A stretch of DNA of 58,697 nt, the filler included, from Barthelona sp. PAP020 (taxonomy: Eukaryota): the NCBI GenBank assembly GCA_040182905.1. It is 6 parts of 6 records of this genome, joined end to end, with 100 filler letters (N's around TTAATTAATTAA, not from the genome) between each part and the next. Parts side by side here need not be neighbours in the genome. Positions count along the whole stretch, not along the records: positions 39,345 to 48,987 come from JARQWU010000421.1; 5 more parts are not named here. One strand, 5' to 3'. Under the pieces are notes generated by a model. That model saw only the letters and a program-made list of their open reading frames with translations. It did no database searches and was not told the DNA's origin. Shown in pieces: positions 39,345 through 49,109 of this stretch. The translations under genes were made by a program, and so were the position numbers. The first letter of the stretch is position 1. The number at the start of each line of letters is the position of its first letter.

Positions 39345-39360
39345 CCCATGAGGTGGCAAG

Positions 39361-39437
39361 ACATACTCTTTTGTAATTTTTGGCCTATGTGTCAGCTCGT
39401 GCGAATTGCAAATGTGTATGGCTTTTGCGTGGGCTTT
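39361..39437. repeat. Hairpin-forming direct repeat, copy A (immediately downstream of the operon)
   Basis: 42/53 identity with 48844-48896 plus an identical TGCGTGGGCTTT tail; stems CATAC/GTATG and TTTGTAATT/AATTGCAAA. Confidence 0.85.
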
Positions 39438-41047
39438 TAAAATATATCTTCTTCTTTTTCCCGTTTTGTTAAATCTTTTCTTTCTTTTTCATCTTTTTCT
39501 ACATCAATTTTTTCAACAACTAAATCTGCACTTGCAGGTCTTGCTCTTGATGATGCCCATTCTCTAAGTCCGTCAATTTTCTTTTTCATCGTAATTGCTA
39601 AAGGAACTATTTGTTCACAAGCAGAAATTAAATGACTTAGTTTAACCTGAGGACTTTCATTATTCTCTATATATGCGTTAAACATTGATTCTTTAACAAC
39701 TTCTTCAATTTCTGCACCATTGAAATATTTAGATTTATCACTCAAGCTTTCAAAGTTGGTAATCCCAGTTTGACCATTTTTAGTAAGATGAATGTTAAAA
39801 ATATTTTCTCTCTCTTTTTTAGTTGGTAAGTCAATAAAGAAGATTTCATCGAAACGACCTTTTCTAAGTAATTCAGGTGGCAGATTGCTAATATTATTTG
39901 CTGTTGCAACAACAAATACCGGTTTAGTTTTTTCCTGCATCCATGTTAGAATTGTAGAAAATACTCTTGAATTTGTCCCTCCGTCTTTTTCACCACCACC
40001 AGAACTAAGACCTTTTTCAATTTCATCAATCCAAAGAACACAAGGGGCTATTGCTTCGGCTGTTTGTATTGCCATTCTGATATTGTTTTCACTGCTTCCG
40101 ACCTCTGCCTGAAAAACTTTTCCAATATCTAATTTGAGTAAAGGTTGATTCCATTCACTCGCAATAGATTTTGCAGTTAAACTTTTACCAGTACCTGGCA
40201 CCCCAAGTAATAACATTCCTTTTGGCTCTTTTAAACCAAAAGCTTTTGCTTTGCGTTCAAAGGCTTTACTACGAAGTTTTAACCATTTTTTTAAGTTGTC
40301 AAGACCTCCAACACTTGAATCTAAGTTCTCATTTGTTTGGTAGTAGTCAAGGATTCCACTTTTTCTGATTATTTGAGATTTTTCACTTGCAATTATTTTA
40401 ATTGCTTCTCGTTTATTCAAACCAACTTTCTCTTTTGCAAGCCGAAAAGCCAAATCAGCTTCTGTATCAGTAAGTCCTGCTGCTGCATCTAATAAAAGTT
40501 TTTTTAAGTCTTCATTTATTGAATTTTCATGACCTAAAACAACTTCTAAACGTTTTTCTAAATCTGCCTTATCGGGTAAAGGCATATTTATTACGGTAAC
40601 ATATTTCTCAAGTTCTATCGGGAGTTTAAAGAAAGGTGAAAGCAGCAATAAATGTTTATTTAAAACTTTGAAATACTGGGTTATTTTTCGAAGTTGAACG
40701 ATAAATTTTTCATCACTGAATTGTTTATGTGCATCCTCAATAATGAAAATTTCTTTTGTGTTTTCTTTTTCTTTATTGCCTTTCAGCAAAAACTCCAACA
40801 AGCTATCAGGGTTTTCTGCTTCTTCATGACTTTGATGTTTTTCTACTTTATCAAGTCCATTGCTTCCTGATTTTTGTTTATGGTTTTGCAAACCATCTAC
40901 TAAGTCCCAAGTATTAAACTCATAACCTTTACGATATGCAATACTTCTAACTTTTTGGATAATCCTTCCATATTCAGGTGATGCAAGATATATCAATGGA
41001 TAATTTGCATCTAACATATATTTTAAATCTTCAAAACTTTTTCCCAT
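39437..41047 (-). CDS. Ycf46/SpoVK-like AAA+ ATPase (bacterial)
   Basis: Degenerate N-terminal AAA module, VGGLDNLKKWL, Walker A GVPGTGKS, Walker B VLWIDEIEK, SRH ATANNISNLPPELLRKGRFDEIFF and C-terminal LREWASSRARPAS. Confidence 0.93.
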   Translation of the reverse strand: MGKSFEDLKYMLDANYPLIYLASPEYGRIIQKVRSIAYRKGYEFNTWDLVDGLQNHKQKSGSNGLDKVEKHQSHEEAENPDSLLEFLLKGNKEKENTKEIFIIEDAHKQFSDEKFIVQLRKITQYFKVLNKHLLLLSPFFKLPIELEKYVTVINMPLPDKADLEKRLEVVLGHENSINEDLKKLLLDAAAGLTDTEADLAFRLAKEKVGLNKREAIKIIASEKSQIIRKSGILDYYQTNENLDSSVGGLDNLKKWLKLRSKAFERKAKAFGLKEPKGMLLLGVPGTGKSLTAKSIASEWNQPLLKLDIGKVFQAEVGSSENNIRMAIQTAEAIAPCVLWIDEIEKGLSSGGGEKDGGTNSRVFSTILTWMQEKTKPVFVVATANNISNLPPELLRKGRFDEIFFIDLPTKKERENIFNIHLTKNGQTGITNFESLSDKSKYFNGAEIEEVVKESMFNAYIENNESPQVKLSHLISACEQIVPLAITMKKKIDGLREWASSRARPASADLVVEKIDVEKDEKERKDLTKREKEEDIF

Positions 41048-41052
41048 ATCAG

Positions 41053-41685
41053 TTAACTTTTTGCAATTATTTTATTGTCGGATGTTACTTCGATTTTATT
41101 TTTGTATTTTGATGGAACACTTCTTTTTATAATATCACTTTCATTCCTTTTGTTGCCTAATTTTTCTTCAAGTTTTCGCATTGCTTCATTTGCTAATTTG
41201 TGCATATCATCAGGTAAATAGTTTGTGTCAGATACTACTGTTCCGTCATTAAGGATAGTAAATTTGATTTCAGTGCGTTTTTCTTTCTCCTTATTGTTTT
41301 TCGAGTAACCAACCATATAGAACCTGTCAACTTCAGTCTGATTTGGCTCAAAATCGTAATCTTTTTTTAATGAAAAACCTACATTTTTAAATTCTGATAA
41401 TATTGAACTTCGTGCATATTCAACATTTAATTTGTAAAAAACTTCTTTTAACTCATCTACAAGCTGCACACCATTTTTAAGGTAGTAACTATTATAAATA
41501 ACCTGACTTCCTTTAACCTTCATAGCATATTCGCCATGAACTTCTTGTTTAGGAATTTTAGTTATTGCAACTTCATCTGCTGTAACTTTATATTCCCAAT
41601 TCAAGCGTTGAGCTGCTTTTATAAGCACTTCTTTTGAAAAGATCTGTGGGTTTTTTAAAAATTTTGATGTTTCAAAACAAGACAT
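41053..41685 (-). CDS. DUF1257 (Ycf35)-like + DUF2997-like fusion protein
   Basis: N-terminal MSCFET...LIKAAQRLNW...EYARSSILSEFKNVGF resembles DUF1257; C-terminal EIKFTILNDGTV...LEEKLG resembles DUF2997; adjacent to a Ycf46-like ATPase. Confidence 0.65.
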   Translation of the reverse strand: MSCFETSKFLKNPQIFSKEVLIKAAQRLNWEYKVTADEVAITKIPKQEVHGEYAMKVKGSQVIYNSYYLKNGVQLVDELKEVFYKLNVEYARSSILSEFKNVGFSLKKDYDFEPNQTEVDRFYMVGYSKNNKEKEKRTEIKFTILNDGTVVSDTNYLPDDMHKLANEAMRKLEEKLGNKRNESDIIKRSVPSKYKNKIEVTSDNKIIAKS

Positions 41686-41686
41686 A

Positions 41687-44068
41687 TTATTTTCTCCTTT
41701 TGTTTGTTCTGTTTTTATTAGTTGACTTAGCCTGCTTTTTCATTCCAAGAATGTTTTTTAGTTCAGTGATGTTTTTTGCAGGTATCTCAAGCGTTTTAGC
41801 TTTAATACTCATTCCTTTGTCATTTGTTAATATGACAGGATTTCGCTTCATGTACTGAAGTGCAACAGAAAATATGATATTATCTGGTGATTTCTTATTA
41901 AAATCACTTGGTAAATTATCTATTTTACTTGTGTTAAATCTGATGTTTTTATCTTGACGATGTTTGTGGATATTACGAATCGCATTTTGAGCTTTATCTT
42001 TTAAGTCTGGTTTTACTTTTAAGTTATCCAACTCATCAATTACTTTCCCTGAAAATATAATTGTTTGCTGTTGCCCGATTATTTCTATAATATTTGGTTC
42101 TTCAAGTAAGATATTTGTGTCAATAATAATAGATTTCCTTTGACTTGCAATTTCAATATCCTTTTTTGTTGTTTTTAGTTTAGCTTCCAATTCAACAAAA
42201 AGAGTAAATTCTTCATCAAGGCACTTTTCTTTTTCCTTCTCTATTTGAGCTTCAATTTTTTCAATAAAACCTATTGTTGGATTTGTATTTTCCGTAAATT
42301 TCTTACTTAACTTCTCAATATCAGAATTGATTTTATGCATTCTATTTTGTAGTATAGAATTAATAGCTTGCTGCTTTTGTCTTTCTAAATTCTGGAAATA
42401 GTTACTTGAATTTCCCAAGGTTTTAAACGGGAGTAATTTTGTGTCAATATTGTTTGTTTCTGCTATTTTATCCTTATCTGTTTCATCATCTGTATTCAAT
42501 TCATTAAAAAACACTTTGATATTTTTATCTACAATTGGAACATACTCTTTTGCAAAAGATACGCGATATTTATTCAAATACTTTTCTTCTAAATCAAACT
42601 CAGTTATATTCCGGCATAAGAAGTGCTTTTCAATTTGATGCAAATCTCCGTTAATGGAAATTGGAATATTAGACTTCTCTCTTTTAAATACATTCCAAGT
42701 TTTATTATTAGATTTGAACAAAACATTAAACTCAACAACTGAGTCCATCAAAAGAATATAGACATTCTGGAATTGTTCAACAGCCTTGTTTATTTCGTCA
42801 TAAAGTTGCTGCGATATCTCATTATTTTCTAGATAGATGAAAAAGTATTTTTCCTTAGAATTAATAGTTAAATTCTTTATGGCATCTATCTCTTTTTTAG
42901 AAACATCTTTCAGTAAGAACCAAATTTCTTGTTTAGAAAACTCAATGAATTTTGAAATGTTATTGAAAAATATTTCCGGTTCAATAAACAAAGAATCCTT
43001 GTAGTATTCATCCAAAATGGCAATAGCTTCTTCTGTACTTTTCTCCTCTAACGCCACATTTATCTTCTTCTGATAATTCGTTAAATTTTCTGCAATATTG
43101 TTTTTCTCAATATTATAATCTTGCAACTGATAGTTTGAATTAACAAAATCTATAAAGGTTTTGTGATTGATTCTTTTACAATCATATTCTGAGAAAAAAT
43201 CATTTGCGGATTTACTAGTTGGTTCAAATACAATTGAACTAAGTTTTCCATTCGTAATATCAAGTAGATATATTCTGTATAATATTGTTTTGAAATGGCT
43301 TACGTTGATACATTCAGAATCTTTAAAAGAACTTAATGTGTCAGGATTATATATCTGAGGAATTTGACTTTTTGCAAATGTTTTTAAGAATCCTTCATCC
43401 TCAAAGTCTATTTTGCAATCACCATTCTCTACTCTAACTCCTTTGATGAATTCAAAATTATCTTTTGCATTTAAATGCTGACTACTTGTATAGTCAAAGT
43501 ACAATTCAAAAGTTTTGTTTTGATGTGTCTTGAATTTTTTGCCTTTCGTAACATATTCTTTTCCAATTGCTGTAAGAGTGCAATATGAAAAATCAATATC
43601 CCCACCATCTATCATTTCAAATTCTTGCAGCGATTGCAGTGCTTCCTTTAGAATTTCATATTCGGCTAAATCTTTATATTTTTTCTGAGAAGGATTATCA
43701 ACTACGTTAAAACCCAAAATTTCCCCAATTTGCTCCAAACTTAGATGTTCTTCTATTTGTAATAATCCACAAATTGTTTTATCAAACAAAGTAAAGTCTA
43801 TTGCTTCAGTGCATGTTGCTGAATATTTTGCTTTGGAGAAGAACCATTCGATTTCTTCATAACCAAGATATATTTCTGTTAATTTTTTATCAGAATGTGA
43901 TGTGCTAAATAAAAAATTCTCTATTTCAGTTTTTATATCTATTGCAGGCTCTTTTGTTAGTGCGGCTTTTCTATCAGGTCTTGTGCGTAAGTTTATTAAA
44001 GAAAGGTCTATCTTTCCTAAAATTCCTGCATCAGGATTCTCATTATTTGAATTAGAACTATTTGTCAT
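41687..44068 (-). CDS. Large protein: wHTH-like N-terminus, coiled coil, C-terminal PIN (PhoH-N/Swt1/SMG6-like) RNase
   Basis: IIIDTNILL, VIDELDNLK, PDNIIFSVA and ILTNDKGMSIKA, with the acidic catalytic residues intact; LSLEQIGEILGF...LTAIGKEY is wHTH-like. Confidence 0.85.
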   Translation of the reverse strand: MTNSSNSNNENPDAGILGKIDLSLINLRTRPDRKAALTKEPAIDIKTEIENFLFSTSHSDKKLTEIYLGYEEIEWFFSKAKYSATCTEAIDFTLFDKTICGLLQIEEHLSLEQIGEILGFNVVDNPSQKKYKDLAEYEILKEALQSLQEFEMIDGGDIDFSYCTLTAIGKEYVTKGKKFKTHQNKTFELYFDYTSSQHLNAKDNFEFIKGVRVENGDCKIDFEDEGFLKTFAKSQIPQIYNPDTLSSFKDSECINVSHFKTILYRIYLLDITNGKLSSIVFEPTSKSANDFFSEYDCKRINHKTFIDFVNSNYQLQDYNIEKNNIAENLTNYQKKINVALEEKSTEEAIAILDEYYKDSLFIEPEIFFNNISKFIEFSKQEIWFLLKDVSKKEIDAIKNLTINSKEKYFFIYLENNEISQQLYDEINKAVEQFQNVYILLMDSVVEFNVLFKSNNKTWNVFKREKSNIPISINGDLHQIEKHFLCRNITEFDLEEKYLNKYRVSFAKEYVPIVDKNIKVFFNELNTDDETDKDKIAETNNIDTKLLPFKTLGNSSNYFQNLERQKQQAINSILQNRMHKINSDIEKLSKKFTENTNPTIGFIEKIEAQIEKEKEKCLDEEFTLFVELEAKLKTTKKDIEIASQRKSIIIDTNILLEEPNIIEIIGQQQTIIFSGKVIDELDNLKVKPDLKDKAQNAIRNIHKHRQDKNIRFNTSKIDNLPSDFNKKSPDNIIFSVALQYMKRNPVILTNDKGMSIKAKTLEIPAKNITELKNILGMKKQAKSTNKNRTNKRRK

Positions 44069-47000
44069 TGCTAAATTTCTTTTTCAATTCATTGTAATTG
44101 ATTATCATTCCTTCGTTTCCGATTATCTCTACGACATTTTTATAAATTCTATCCCCTGTATTGTTTTGATATTGTGAAAAGAAATTCTTATTACCTACAA
44201 CAATTAACAACCTTTTAGCGCGTGAAAGAGCAACATTTAAACGTTGAGGTGATTTTGCGAAACCAATATCTCTATTAGGTCGGATTTTACCATTATCAAT
44301 AACCTGATTACTCCTTACTGTTGAAACAATAATTATATTTCGTTCCATCCCTTGAAACTTATCTACAGTATTTAGTCTTACAGGAATATTTAGCTTGCTT
44401 CTTGAATATTTTGCAACTTTCCTTAGTAACCCAACTTGATGTCCATAAAAGCTAATTAATCCAATTTCTTCTTCTTCTTTTTTTTTGTTTTCATCTTTAA
44501 TACCATCCCAGTGTTCCATATATTCTGTAAAACCATTTGCTTTTTTCAATAGTTTCAAGACTAATGAAATAGCCTCAACTTCTGAAGTATTTGTTCTTGA
44601 TGTACCACTTTTTTTTTCAGGTTCATCAACATCAATCCATATTGTATGTATGTCAGGTTTAATAAAATCTTTTAAAAGAAAACCGTGATGCCTTGAAAAT
44701 GGATTATTTAAATTAGTGTCATCTGCATTCTCAATTATTGGTTTTCCTGGCTCCAATCCCCCTTCTTCAAGATAAAATTGCTTAATAACGTTATTGATTT
44801 TAGGGTGCATCCTGTATTGCTCATTGAATGATGATTTAATTGTAGGAGAAACATTTGGATGAGTGATAAGCCTTTCAAATTGAGAAGTTTCAACGAAATC
44901 CTTATCAATTTCTTCCGCCAATTCTTTAGCTTCTTTAGTTTCAAGAGTTTCTAACACTTCTTTAAAAGATTTATCGTGCAACATTGGAGGTAATTGGCGG
45001 TGGTCACCAATAATGATATTCTTTTTACCATAGCACATTGGTAATAATAATTCTGGTGGAGTTGCTTTACTTGCTTCGTCTGTTATAACTGTATCAAATT
45101 CAGTTGAGATTAGAAGAGATTCATTTTTTCTGTTTATCAATGAACCAAAACGCAAGTATATGTTAGCAAGCTTAGCCGCTAATTGTTCATTATATCCATT
45201 GTTTACGAAACGTTCAATTATTTTGTCTTCATCAATTTCACCTTTAATTGATTGAACAATTTTCTGATTTTTTGTAGCTAGTTTATGCCAAAAATATGTT
45301 TTACTTATATCTTCAACCTCATCTTTTTTTTCATTAAAAAGGTTTTGATAATCAGCTCCAAAATTTGGACTCCCTGCCGAACTACTTGTACTGCCAACAA
45401 CATTACAGTACTTAAAATATTTATCTTTAAAAAGAGTTTTCATTTTTTTTTGAGGTTGCGCCATTTCAAATGCCCAACCCCTCATTATGTCCCCATATTT
45501 GGGATTCGTTTGGTGAGAATTGTCAGCTATTCTTCGCATCCACAATTGAACAGCATTGTTGTTAAAATTTTCATATACTATTTCCTCTTCCGATTCTTCA
45601 TCTTCGTTAACTTCATTTTCATATAAATCATCAACTACAATATTCTCGTCAATCCATTTCATTATTCTTTCAAAAGAGTATTTTTTTCCTTCTTCCTCGA
45701 ATTTTGAAGCTCTACCGAAACGAATTGGTTTTACAATTGTGTGTTCTTTATTTAAAAGTTTTTCAAGAGCGTTATCTACAGCAAGATTAGTTTCAGATGT
45801 CAGCAATATTCTTTGTTGCTGGTTTGTTCTAATCATTTGCCAAATCATTTCAGCAATTACTGTTGTTTTTCCTGTTCCTGGAGGACCTTGTAATAAAGCT
45901 AAATCCGTGGCGTGTAATGCAGATAAGATGGCTCTGCGTTGTGAATTATTTAGAGTTAACAGTTCATGCCTTTTTAATTCGTTCCAATCTTCTGTGTCTT
46001 CTGATAAATTCCTAAAAACTTCTGTCGCTTTTGAACTATCAAAAACAAATTCTTTAAGTTTTTCATTTACAGGTTTGCTATCTAATCCTTCCTGTGGATT
46101 AATAACTTTATTCATGGCTTCATTAAGCCAAGTAATTTTTGCTTGGTCTCCTCGCAAGTTAGGAATAACTGTATTTACGTGAGGTTCTTTATCTATGAAT
46201 TTTAGAAAATTATCAGTTTGTTTTTTCTCATCTTTCCATTTGTAAGGAAGATTAAAAACTAGATTATTGTAATCTGAAATTTTAGCAGCAAGGTTTCCTA
46301 TTGGCAAAAACTTTTTTCTTCTGGTTTCTTGATTTTCTATTGCAACTCTAAATTCTACTCCAGCAAGATTTTTCAATTTATCCTCAAATGCTTCTTTTTG
46401 AGATTTTTTTGCTATTAAATTTATTTTAACCTTGAATTTGAAATCATCATCTAATGGTGATTTTACGATATTGAATTGATTTAATGATTTAATTTTATTA
46501 AATCGATATTCGAGTTCTTCCTTATTTTCAAATTCAAATGCAATATTTTTATACTCGCCAAATTCGACTTCAAATTCAAAGTCATGAAAATCTCGTTTTA
46601 AATTATTCCAAAATTCATCATCAAAGCCTGTAGTTATTTCTGAACCTAAAGTATATACTTCGCCAAGATTAAATTTTACGCTTTTTGCACCTTCATCAAA
46701 AAGTGTTTTTCTTTTTCTCAAAAGTCTATCTTTAAATTCTGATTTGGATTTTGAAACAAATGAGAAAGAGGAATCGGGTCTAAACCATTTATTAACTGTA
46801 TCTTTTACTGGTAGACCATCTTTGTTAATTACGGAAAACCTACCTATAAGCCCTTTCCTTTGAAGTTTAAATTTTTGAATTATTTCTTTAGGCAAAACTG
46901 CTATTTTATCACTACTGTTATAAAACTCAACAGTGTTTTCTTCTGTGCCGTTTCGGACAAAAAGATTCCAGTTTAATTTCTCTAATTCATTTTTAACTAT

Positions 47001-47813
47001 TTGAGAATTGACAAACGGGCGGATTTTTAAAATGCAGGCGATTTTTCTGTTCCTTTCAAAAGTGTCTGAAAAATCCTTACTTATTACTTTATCAATACCT
47101 CTGAAAATATCATTAAGTTTTAATAGAATTACATCTCCTTCAAATTTATCTTCTATTTCAAAGGGATTCTTTTTTATTGCTTCTTGCAATGCTTCATATT
47201 CTGGATTTTCTTTTTGCTTGAGTTTTGTCCTAAACTGCATTCTGATGGAGCTAACATCAATTGGTTGGTCGTATCCTGAAATTTCAATCGGCTGAGAATT
47301 CTTTTCCAAAATCAACTCTTGTGCTTCAATCCATTTTTCCCATATTTCTTGTTGATTTTCAATGTTTGATTTTGGAGAAATCTCTAGCTCACAAATTTTA
47401 CCATATAAGTTTTGCTGTTCTCTGCTTGGAAAAGGTGTATCATTGAAGTCAATTAAAGAAATGTTACAATCTTCCTGAATATAGTATTTACTAATTTCAA
47501 CGCTTTTGTATTCTTGAATTATTCTTTTTGATTTCTTGTTTATTACAGCTTTGTAATCATGAGTTTTTGGTAACCATTTTAATGTAAGGTCAATGTTCTT
47601 ATTTGTGTCTTCAATTGAAATTAACAATTTGTGCTCATCAGCATTCTTTTTACTGAATAAGCATTGATACTGATTCGAACTTAACCAATTTTTTAAATCA
47701 TCAAAAGTTCCATGATTTTGTTGATTTAACATTTGAATTGTTTTTTTGTCAAAACGAATAACAATGTCAATCACATCATCATTAAATATGTCTTCTTCGT
47801 TTCTATATGCCAT
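44058..47813 (-). CDS. UPF1/DNA2-like superfamily-1 helicase with ~550-aa unrecognised N-terminal region
   Basis: LNNSQRRA, QGPPGTGKTT, SETNLAVDN, ITDEASKA, GDHRQLPP, QYRMHP, TVDKFQGMER and RLNVALSRAK. Confidence 0.93.
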   Translation of the reverse strand: MAYRNEEDIFNDDVIDIVIRFDKKTIQMLNQQNHGTFDDLKNWLSSNQYQCLFSKKNADEHKLLISIEDTNKNIDLTLKWLPKTHDYKAVINKKSKRIIQEYKSVEISKYYIQEDCNISLIDFNDTPFPSREQQNLYGKICELEISPKSNIENQQEIWEKWIEAQELILEKNSQPIEISGYDQPIDVSSIRMQFRTKLKQKENPEYEALQEAIKKNPFEIEDKFEGDVILLKLNDIFRGIDKVISKDFSDTFERNRKIACILKIRPFVNSQIVKNELEKLNWNLFVRNGTEENTVEFYNSSDKIAVLPKEIIQKFKLQRKGLIGRFSVINKDGLPVKDTVNKWFRPDSSFSFVSKSKSEFKDRLLRKRKTLFDEGAKSVKFNLGEVYTLGSEITTGFDDEFWNNLKRDFHDFEFEVEFGEYKNIAFEFENKEELEYRFNKIKSLNQFNIVKSPLDDDFKFKVKINLIAKKSQKEAFEDKLKNLAGVEFRVAIENQETRRKKFLPIGNLAAKISDYNNLVFNLPYKWKDEKKQTDNFLKFIDKEPHVNTVIPNLRGDQAKITWLNEAMNKVINPQEGLDSKPVNEKLKEFVFDSSKATEVFRNLSEDTEDWNELKRHELLTLNNSQRRAILSALHATDLALLQGPPGTGKTTVIAEMIWQMIRTNQQQRILLTSETNLAVDNALEKLLNKEHTIVKPIRFGRASKFEEEGKKYSFERIMKWIDENIVVDDLYENEVNEDEESEEEIVYENFNNNAVQLWMRRIADNSHQTNPKYGDIMRGWAFEMAQPQKKMKTLFKDKYFKYCNVVGSTSSSAGSPNFGADYQNLFNEKKDEVEDISKTYFWHKLATKNQKIVQSIKGEIDEDKIIERFVNNGYNEQLAAKLANIYLRFGSLINRKNESLLISTEFDTVITDEASKATPPELLLPMCYGKKNIIIGDHRQLPPMLHDKSFKEVLETLETKEAKELAEEIDKDFVETSQFERLITHPNVSPTIKSSFNEQYRMHPKINNVIKQFYLEEGGLEPGKPIIENADDTNLNNPFSRHHGFLLKDFIKPDIHTIWIDVDEPEKKSGTSRTNTSEVEAISLVLKLLKKANGFTEYMEHWDGIKDENKKKEEEEIGLISFYGHQVGLLRKVAKYSRSKLNIPVRLNTVDKFQGMERNIIIVSTVRSNQVIDNGKIRPNRDIGFAKSPQRLNVALSRAKRLLIVVGNKNFFSQYQNNTGDRIYKNVVEIIGNEGMIINYNELKKKFSNDK

Positions 47814-48801
47814 TATCTATGTGATAGTTTAATAGTTTTATTGTTAACCCTTTGTAAATTTTACAATACCAATCAAGCAAATTAGTATTGTTTTCTTCTG
47901 TTGTAATCAAACATTGAGTCTGACAATAATCTTTAATAATACATTCGTTACATCTTTGTGAATCAGCTAAATTCTGTTTTCTTGAATTAAACTGCTCACT
48001 TATTAAATTCCAATTATCTTGAAAAGTCCCTAAACTTGAATTTGAATAAGGACACATACTAATTTTGCCGTCAGGCAAAATAGCTATTGTTTCTCCCTTT
48101 GTTGCAGGGCAAAATCCATTTCGGTTGTCTGAAATTAAGTTGAGAAATGGATAAAGCCATGTTCCTTCCACACTCAAACCTCTTTCATTTGCAAAAACGT
48201 ATAGATTGAAAACTCTATCAATTACACTTTCAGGTTTTAAGTTAATTCCATAATAATCGATATTTAATCGCCAAGTTTTTATTTTCAAATGTTCAAGTGT
48301 CATGATAAAGTCAGTTGAAATTTTCTGAATGTTTTCGTTTTTTAATGTTGTTGTTAATGAGTTGAGCAAAATATCGTTTTTATTTAATCGCTCAATACTA
48401 GAAACAATTTCATCATAACTCCCGTCACCTCTTACTTTATCATTTTCATATTTCAATCCATCAAGCGATGTATGAACCTGAACTTTATTTGCTTTTATAA
48501 ATTCAATGATTTCTGAATTTAGCAAAATCAAATTTGAATAGATACTATAGTCAATTTCTTTATTTGTTGCGTTCTGAGTTTGCTTTATGATTTTTGTTAA
48601 AGAATTCCATTTCAAAAATGGTTCTCCTCCAGTAAAATGGATTTGATATTTCTCGGAACTCTCATTTTGTATTATTCTATGAATTAATCTACTATGGTCA
48701 ATATCTTTTTCTTCTGAAATTTTTGTCCGAATACAATCTGTACAATCAAGATTACAATCATTATCTAATACAATATCAATTCTGTAAGGTTGATACCGCA
48801 C
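47803..48801 (-). CDS. Radical SAM protein with C-terminal SPASM domain
   Basis: CNLDCTDC (CxxxCxxC), FTGGEPFL, SLDG and SPASM cysteines CPA...PDGKISMCP...CNECIIKDYCQTQC...YC. Probable GTG start at 48801, because the listed extension to 48936 merely reads through the hairpin repeat. Confidence 0.88.
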   Translation of the reverse strand: MRYQPYRIDIVLDNDCNLDCTDCIRTKISEEKDIDHSRLIHRIIQNESSEKYQIHFTGGEPFLKWNSLTKIIKQTQNATNKEIDYSIYSNLILLNSEIIEFIKANKVQVHTSLDGLKYENDKVRGDGSYDEIVSSIERLNKNDILLNSLTTTLKNENIQKISTDFIMTLEHLKIKTWRLNIDYYGINLKPESVIDRVFNLYVFANERGLSVEGTWLYPFLNLISDNRNGFCPATKGETIAILPDGKISMCPYSNSSLGTFQDNWNLISEQFNSRKQNLADSQRCNECIIKDYCQTQCLITTEENNTNLLDWYCKIYKGLTIKLLNYHIDNGI

Positions 48802-48839
48802 TAATTTTGGGCAAGTCTCTGGTTGTGGGTCGGCTAAAA

Positions 48840-48914
48840 TTGCACTCTTTTGCAAATTTTGGTTTGAGGGTTGGCTCGTGGGATTTGCAAATGTGTGCAA
48901 TGTGCGTGGGCTTT
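48840..48914. repeat. Hairpin-forming direct repeat, copy B (upstream of the operon)
   Basis: Perfect stems TTGCAC/GTGCAA and TTTGCAAAT/ATTTGCAAA; homologous to 39361-39437. Confidence 0.85.
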
Positions 48915-48987
48915 CTATGTCATTATCTCTACTCAATTTTAGTTATTATTTCAATGTTCGTGGTCTTTTTAGCATTACCCCCAACTT

Positions 48988-49087: not shown

Positions 49088-49109
49088 TTTAATTTCTTTT
49101 TAATACCCA

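What the first reader, a model, noticed from the sequence alone, without database searches (positions are those of the whole stretch)
39361..48914. Operon is bracketed by two ~75-bp direct repeats with compensatory hairpin substitutions
Seen: copy A (39361-39437) abuts the stop codon of the last gene and copy B (48840-48914) lies 38 nt before the probable first start. Cores 39365-39417 and 48844-48896 share 42/53 nt and both end in TGCGTGGGCTTT. Differences in the stems are paired: CATAC/GTATG in A versus TTGCAC/GTGCAA in B, and TTTGTAATT/AATTGCAAA versus TTTGCAAAT/ATTTGCAAA, while the loop diverges. Inference: structure rather than sequence is conserved, as expected for ssDNA-folded recombination sites (attC-like or REP-like) or a structured RNA. 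The 9.4-kb operon could therefore be an excisable cassette.
Basis: partly seen in the sequence, partly recalled or inferred. Interest (0 to 1): 0.8.

Follow-up and report, generated by a model that had tools for sequence, protein, structure and literature searches.

The report
Paired hairpins framing long integron-like cassettes
Two matching DNA hairpins sit just inside the ends of a 9.8-kb swappable gene cassette, and the same unnamed pair turns up almost only on the long cassettes of Bacteroidota bacteria, most with predicted anti-phage genes, where it likely helps oversized cargo to be cut out and moved.

Summary
The repeats are real and covary, but they are not the cassette's ends. The window is a join of unrelated contigs; 39345-48987 is one Bacteroidota-type contig. 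Near-identical contigs from other samples diverge exactly at a G|TT box 70 nt outside copy B, so the mobile unit is a ~9.8-kb cassette bounded by integron-like attC sites. A and B are the 3' and 5' members of a hairpin family (stem-CACAT...AAGAG-stem, CCAAC-type motif three times) with no Rfam match, found in 42 of 151 Bacteroidota genomes, and associated with an IntI-like integrase. Among 104 validated cassettes, hairpins occur in 1 of 76 under 2.8 kb and 21 of 28 above (loci were picked for hairpins), in pairs, at matched distances from the two attC halves; long leaders pair with their own trailers. Cargo is mostly predicted defence operons. Best reading: single-strand DNA accessory sites that help long cassettes move (mechanism inferred, untested); rival: gene-capture sites. 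The scan noted this family before on other DNA (e1-9712267, e1-7611264); nine paper searches found no description.

The parts
48976..48985 (-). R' half of the attC-like site; cassette starts at G|TT (G = 48985)
   Evidence: Runs X5 and X16 and the window carry three different upstream sequences that meet at this G (tables 7, 8); complementary R'' at the 3' end of the related cassette L151
48915..48975 (-). Leader between the crossover box and hairpin B (90 nt from G to CACAT)
   Evidence: leader class compared
48826..48914 (-). Copy B: 5'-class hairpin (stem 48840-48901; CACAT 48895-48891, AAGAG 48849-48845; CC-AC motifs before, in the loop, after)
47803..48936 (-). Radical SAM/SPASM-type gene; start uncertain (GTG 48801 or TTG 48936, the latter reading through B); not found beside the operon in the 80 metagenome loci
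44058..47813 (-). 1251-aa SF1 (Upf1-like) helicase; best PADLOC match MkoA over the helicase half only
41687..44068 (-). 793-aa protein with C-terminal PIN domain
41053..41685 (-). 210-aa conserved protein, no Pfam hit; weak lead to DUF2997/DUF1257
39437..41047 (-). 536-aa AAA+ ATPase; its stop codon abuts copy A
39346..39437 (-). Copy A: 3'-class hairpin (stem 39361-39421; CACAT 39416-39412, AAGAG 39370-39366) and start of the trailer; rest of trailer and terminal attC are beyond the contig end
   Evidence: about 150 further nt in contigs of X2 and X5; trailer plus attC seen in L123, L146, L151

Best explanation
A and B are the 3' and 5' members of a hairpin pair that lines the inner ends of long attC-bounded gene cassettes in Bacteroidota, and they likely act as single-stranded-DNA accessory sites that let an integron-like integrase move cargo too long to recombine well otherwise. 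Shown: the cassette layout (G|TT - leader - 5' hairpin - operon - 3' hairpin - trailer - attC), junction at G|TT, covariation, pairing, restriction to long cassettes, matched leader and trailer lengths, leader-trailer complementarity in long frames, frames shared by unrelated cargo. Inferred: excision and integration by the neighbouring tyrosine recombinase at the attC-like sites; folding on the bottom strand; in the excised circle the parts form one structure with attC at the tip, leader-trailer helices below and the two hairpins at the base; a protein (unidentified, possibly the integrase) would bind the CACAT/AAGAG loop and unpaired CC-AC motifs to bring the ends together or stabilise the folded site.
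For: Junction at 48985 with three upstream variants. R'/R'' complementarity in L123, L146, L151 and in 72 of 141 attC-to-attC intervals, null mean 4.4, max 11 of 2000. Family: 118 descriptor hits in 973 kb, 0 in three shuffles; covariation 0.454 vs 0.116; 42 of 151 genomes. Length: 0 of 60 cassettes under 1.5 kb, 1 of 16 at 1.5-2.8 kb, 21 of 28 above, always two hits (one three); in the G003 array 4 of 5 over 4 kb, 0 of 27 under 2.2 kb; single-gene long cassettes are framed too (L226, L248). Leader vs trailer length rho 0.89 (n=26), 0.92 in a second set (n=7). Own trailer best inverted match in 9 of 16 frames, z>=3 in 12 of 16; modelled circle junction beats chimeras in 11 of 11 long frames on the top strand, 10 of 11 on the bottom. 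Wobbles favour the bottom strand 36:17, attC control 114:40. Recalled -7 promoter motif lies between 5' hairpin and first gene in 18 of 33 frames, in the leader in 0 of 33. Integrase in 22 of 41 hairpin genomes vs 25 of 109 others, p=6e-4. Long classical cassettes excise less well (PMC5371416 passages).
Against: No excised circle or activity was observed. 7 of 28 long validated cassettes have no hairpin, so it is not obligatory; loci were selected for hairpins, which inflates the 21 of 28. Short frames (13 of 24 modelled) show 0-13 nt of leader-trailer pairing, and two mid-length frames none; the window's own trailer is cut off, so its pairing was not tested. 19 of 41 hairpin genomes had no integrase hit at E<=1e-85. 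Strand bias is weak and open to composition effects. Length is confounded with cargo type (45 of 90 framed proteins vs 5 of 84 short-cassette proteins hit PADLOC). No binding protein was identified. In this cassette B may be translated. Covariation counts include 51 rows taken by an exact pattern.
Confidence: 0.45

Rival explanations
1. The hairpins are capture sites: a reusable frame (leader+5' hairpin, 3' hairpin+trailer+attC) is joined to chromosomal operons at the cargo-side CCAAC motifs, which is how long cassettes are made; they need not help later movement.
For: Near-identical frames carry unrelated cargo; in 52 of 56 non-independent pairs sharing a trailer, identity ends within 28 nt upstream of CACAT; stop codons lie 0-4 nt from the motif in 34 of 84 cases; cargo brings its own promoter. 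The same four-gene operon occurs in different frames (window, L069, L123, L146) and frameless (L124). The motif resembles the R'' core.
Against: No empty frame among 104 validated cassettes; breakpoints scatter over about 0-28 nt; strong ongoing covariation implies continued function; does not explain matched leader and trailer lengths.
Confidence: 0.25
2. They are RNA elements (processing, read-through, attenuation or 5'-3' pairing) that control expression of long defence operons in the array.
For: Co-oriented with genes (92 of 97 upstream, 84 of 95 downstream ORFs); placed at UTR positions; many 5' copies end in a T-run; cargo is often toxic-type defence genes.
Against: 5' hairpin lies upstream of the likely promoter in 18 of 33 frames; sense-strand G-T pairs are only 17 of 2086 stem cells; not called as terminators; absent from the same operon outside cassettes (6 hits in 877 kb).
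Confidence: 0.14
3. They are single-strand origins or HUH nicking/termination signals for producing or converting a long ssDNA cassette circle.
For: Direct orientation, imperfect hairpins with conserved unpaired motifs, need only in long units; resemblance to sso and IS200/IS605 ends is recalled, not tested.
Against: No HUH partner was searched for or seen; hairpins stay with leader and trailer rather than with cargo; junctions are at G|TT.
Confidence: 0.1
4. One reading: A and B recombine with each other and excise the 9.4-kb operon.
For: Direct repeats bracket the operon; one X1 contig joins 39416 to 48837.
Against: That joint has a 22-nt side and unknown letters between, as expected from another framed cassette; 5' and 3' classes differ in outer stem; no single-hairpin empty cassette; observed junctions are outside B.
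Confidence: 0.05

Closest known systems
Integron gene cassettes and attC sites (sedentary chromosomal integrons, CALIN)
   Same: Co-oriented arrays behind a tyrosine recombinase; uniform ~120-nt imperfect palindromes from AAC to GTT; crossover at G|TT; R'/R'' complementarity per cassette; bottom-strand wobble bias; defence cargo.
   Different: Cassettes reach 13 kb with whole RM and other operons, where classical integron defence cassettes are described as streamlined (10.1101/2024.07.02.601686, passages); extra internal hairpin pair and leader-trailer helices; integrase below the TIGR02249 cut-off, matched in two pieces, often co-oriented with the array; IntegronFinder 2.0 reported only In0 and one complete integron in Bacteroidetes (PMC9024848, passages).
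Accessory sequences of Xer sites (cer/psi) and attI direct repeats (recalled)
   Same: Extra protein-binding elements beside a tyrosine-recombinase core that shape the synapse.
   Different: Those are double-stranded sequence-specific sites; here covarying stems point to folded single strands and the pair is split across the cargo.
IS200/IS605 end hairpins and REP/RAYT (recalled)
   Same: Imperfect ssDNA hairpins in direct orientation; length-limited ssDNA mobility.
   Different: 4-12 copies per genome, clustered in arrays, always paired around cargo; boundaries are attC-like sites outside the hairpins.
Mokosh type I (cargo)
   Same: Upf1-like helicase matches MkoA at E 1e-99.
   Different: Match covers only the helicase half; partners are PIN, 210-aa and AAA proteins, no MkoB hit.

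Membership tests
attC site (for copies A and B) | Inverted R''(AAC)/R'(GTT) cores closing the hairpin | tested here: not met
   Flanking motifs are direct repeats; no GTT after the stem
attC site (for copies A and B) | Crossover inside the site | tested here: not met
   Junction at 48985, 70 nt outside B
Integron-type cassette (whole unit) | Bounded by attC-like palindromes with G|TT junction | tested here: met
   the window's own 3' attC is beyond the contig end and is inferred from L151
Integron-type cassette (whole unit) | R' and R'' of one cassette complementary | tested here: met
   72 of 141 intervals vs null 4.4; L123, L146, L151
Integron-type cassette (whole unit) | Match to the IntegronFinder attC model | not testable with these tools
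   Model not held; no Rfam match at gathering score in 7 loci
Integron | Adjacent tyrosine recombinase with attI-like first junction | tested here: met
   L002, G003, G002, L071; genome association p=6e-4; none on the window contig
Integron | IntI family membership (TIGR02249 cut-off, IntI-specific insertion) | tested here: not met
   7 of 7 below cut-off 265 (172-230 bits), each in two stretches; no insertion apparent in alignment A2; not aligned to IntI1 directly
Integron | Integrase-catalysed excision of circles | not testable with these tools
   No circle junction in 4 runs or terminal repeat in the viral loci printed
Known structured RNA (Rfam 15) | Covariance-model match | tested here: not met
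   No match over A or B at E<=5; none in L001 at E<=1
Intrinsic terminator | GC-rich stem with T-run | tested here: not met
   Neither copy among 8 calls
REP / IS200-IS605 ends | High copy dispersal or hairpins forming the mobile ends | tested here: not met
   4-12 clustered copies per genome (lower bounds); hairpins travel with leader and trailer
REP / IS200-IS605 ends | Linked RAYT/TnpA HUH gene | not tested
   No HUH search was run
Mokosh type I | MkoA plus MkoB | tested here: not met

The most novel reading that the evidence does not exclude
Bacteroidota run a phylum-wide integron-like system, largely unseen by standard tools, that has a dedicated large-cargo adaptor: a split ssDNA frame with a protein-bound hairpin pair that captures whole 3-13 kb defence operons with their promoters and makes them shuffle as cassettes, giving a readable footprint of how cassettes are created.
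Probability: 0.35. Interest if true: 0.85.

Novelty: new variant of a known kind. Interest (0 to 1): 0.64.

Why it matters
Classical integron cassettes are small, long ones recombine poorly, and cassette genesis is described as largely unknown (PMC5371416, passages). Here full-size RM and other defence operons sit in cassettes that carry a specific, mutable cis-element tied to length. Deleting it in a standard excision assay tests directly how the size limit is overcome, and the shared frames give sequence handles on cassette creation. It would also redefine many Bacteroidota defence islands as ordered cassette arrays, and could give a tool for moving large DNA.

Tried and rejected
No own genome is held. 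Rfam: nothing on the repeats, L001 or seven loci; the recalled Flavo-1 idea got no hit, and passages of PMC9723704 and PMC2864571 give it no integron link. A strict pattern found 0 viral contigs, a looser one 10; none of the loci printed had terminal repeats, and the script failed at its last print. The X1 joint 39416-48837 is not taken as an excision product. Run X16 is RNA contigs only: no evidence on expression. A second read-laying on the 5' junction gave no result, so junction diversity rests on 4 of 24 listed runs. Direct-repeat (target duplication) signal between leader and trailer: z<3 in 16 of 16. My attC descriptor is noisy (251 real vs 72 shuffled at score 8) and linked only 26 of 61 hairpins to an attC in the second set (7% expected); many of the 33 others show GTT or AAC boxes by eye only. 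Promoter scan is sigma-70 type and uninformative. No structure prediction was run. Paper searches found no description of the hairpin pair; the library lacks most subscription papers and bioRxiv supplements are closed.
Full report
Observation. The two copies are as described: 42 of 53 identical, blastn E 3e-10, paired stem changes. The window is six contigs joined by N spacers; the contig of interest is 39345-48987, and genes scanned on the other contigs are eukaryote-like. It holds five co-oriented genes: radical SAM/SPASM, Upf1-like helicase, PIN protein, a 210-aa protein, AAA ATPase. No Rfam family covers the repeats and neither is called a terminator.

A family. The B region matched 2 of 72,556 plasmid records. 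In Persicobacter a B-like and an A-like copy bracket a different three-gene operon; in Fulvitalea they sit in an array behind a tyrosine recombinase. The invariant core is CACAT opposite AAGAG (two mismatches) between two freely varying stems, with a CC-AC motif before, in the loop and after (190, 182, 179 of 247 copies). A descriptor gave 118 hits in 973 kb and 0 in three shuffles. On 75 rows, 98.1% of 893 cells pair and 9 of 12 pairs change on both sides (score 0.454; shuffled 0.116; slid at most 0.105); 51 rows came from an exact pattern, so the invariant positions are partly selected. Model R1 found 4-12 clustered copies in each of 5 genomes and matches in 42 of 151 Bacteroidota genomes (only 28 candidates scored per genome, so lower bounds).

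Placement. Of 118 copies, 41 lie 6-45 nt after a stop, 38 lie 29-137 nt before a start, 39 were unclassified; the two classes have different outer stems; flanking ORFs are co-oriented in 92 of 97 and 84 of 95 cases. B is 5'-class, A 3'-class.

The real boundaries. Contigs about 97% identical span the whole unit in runs X2 (9810 nt) and X5 (9808 nt); X5, X16 and the window carry different sequence beyond 48985, the G of a GTT box (4 of 24 runs laid). Related operons L123 (82%), L151 (86%) and L146 lie between ~120-nt AAC...GTT palindromes; their starts complement their ends, and L151's end complements the window's start. Such sites are uniform in length; 72 of 141 intervals show 4/4 complementarity against a null mean of 4.4. 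Array-head recombinases score 172-230 bits on TIGR02249, in two pieces, below cut-off, with no insertion apparent. They occur in 22 of 41 hairpin genomes and 25 of 109 others; in L071 a framed cassette directly follows the integrase and an attI-like junction. So the unit works like an integron cassette, but the enzyme fails the IntI test and A and B fail the attC test.

Length rule. Among 104 validated cassettes: 0 of 60 under 1.5 kb, 1 of 16 at 1.5-2.8 kb, 21 of 28 longer carry hairpins, two each (one three). Loci were chosen for hairpins, which inflates the last figure but not the absence from short cassettes; in the near-complete G003 array it is 4 of 5 against 0 of 27. Seven long cassettes lack them, some perhaps merged neighbours. 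No empty frame was seen.

Symmetry. Distance from G|TT to the 5' hairpin tracks the distance from the 3' hairpin to R'' (rho 0.89, n=26; 0.92, n=7 from independently sampled genomes). In long frames leader and own trailer share ~15-nt inverted blocks that vary between cassettes (rank 1 in 9 of 16, z>=3 in 12 of 16; two mid-length frames show none). Modelled circle junctions (24 of 33 frames) fold as attC at the tip, leader-trailer helices, hairpins at the base; own pairs beat chimeras in 11 of 11 long frames (top) and 10 of 11 (bottom); 13 short frames pair 0-13 nt; the bottom strand is more stable in 24 of 24. The window's frame is mid-length (90 nt) and its trailer is cut off, so this was not tested for it.

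DNA or RNA. Stem wobbles are rare and favour the bottom strand 36:17 (p=0.013), as do the attC-like arms, 114:40. A recalled Bacteroidota -7 motif lies between 5' hairpin and first gene in 18 of 33 frames and in the leader in 0 of 33. The same operon outside cassettes has no hairpins. This favours a DNA role, without proving it.

Cargo. PADLOC at 1e-20 hit 45 of 90 framed proteins (90 of 94 given; L069 and frames L002, L123, L146 left out), in 22 of 29 frames, 14 of RM type, against 5 of 84 in short cassettes (counted by eye; size is a confound). Near-identical frames carry unrelated cargo and identity ends at the cargo-side motif, the main support for the capture rival.

Literature. Passages read: PMC9024848 (Bacteroidetes nearly lack detected integrons), PMC5371416 (excision falls for cassettes of 1.5 kb or more in some settings; genesis unknown), 10.1101/2024.07.02.601686 (defence cassettes streamlined), PMC11523902 (none detected in Elizabethkingia), PMC9723704 and PMC2864571 (Flavo-1). 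Other papers were seen as listings only. Searches found no description of the pair. Comparisons with cer/psi, sso, IS200/IS605 and REP are recalled. Earlier scan notes report this family and frame on other DNA; they were read after my reading was stated and, for the frame, and are not counted as support.

Verdict. Real, widespread, apparently undescribed accessory hairpin pair of long integron-like cassettes. Identity about 0.9; accessory role in moving long cargo 0.45; capture site 0.25; RNA 0.14; origin or nick signal 0.1; self-excision 0.05.

Noticed in passing
window 47803-48936 (-): The radical SAM gene seems to have lost its ancestral Met; the frame stays open through hairpin B in four homologue clusters of 377 aa (83-95% identity), so the hairpin may double as coding sequence.
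   Followed up: partly
window 39437-47813 (-); L069, L123-L153: Helicase-PIN-210aa-AAA is a conserved operon in many metagenome loci, matching no complete PADLOC system: candidate defence system. The 210-aa protein has a weak DUF2997/DUF1257 lead.
   Followed up: partly
L124:1425-3479: The same operon lies directly behind a 684-aa gene that looks Argonaute-like by eye, without hairpins.
   Followed up: no
L073 (cassette of 4770 nt, 5' end): A 5' hairpin with arms swapped (AAGAG arm first, CACAT arm second): the internal-loop module is kept in either polarity.
   Followed up: no
G002 arrays (L216, L217, L218, L222, L211): A 515-aa ORF recurs next to attC-like sites, possibly an IS or intron that targets them.
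   Followed up: no
L263, L265, L268, L269, L270 (viral contigs): Framed cassettes occur in some phage-like contigs, several opposite to the surrounding genes.
   Followed up: partly
L231, L242, L253, L259: Several framed cassettes begin with a small XRE-like regulator gene right after the 5' hairpin (read by eye).
   Followed up: no
window 1-39244 and 49088-58697: The other five contigs carry eukaryote-type genes; the bacterial contig is a stray in this join.
   Followed up: partly
L001:15108-21001: A three-gene operon (814, 437, 710 aa; also L078, L224, L225-like) with no PADLOC hit in the relatives scanned is framed by the same hairpins.
   Followed up: no
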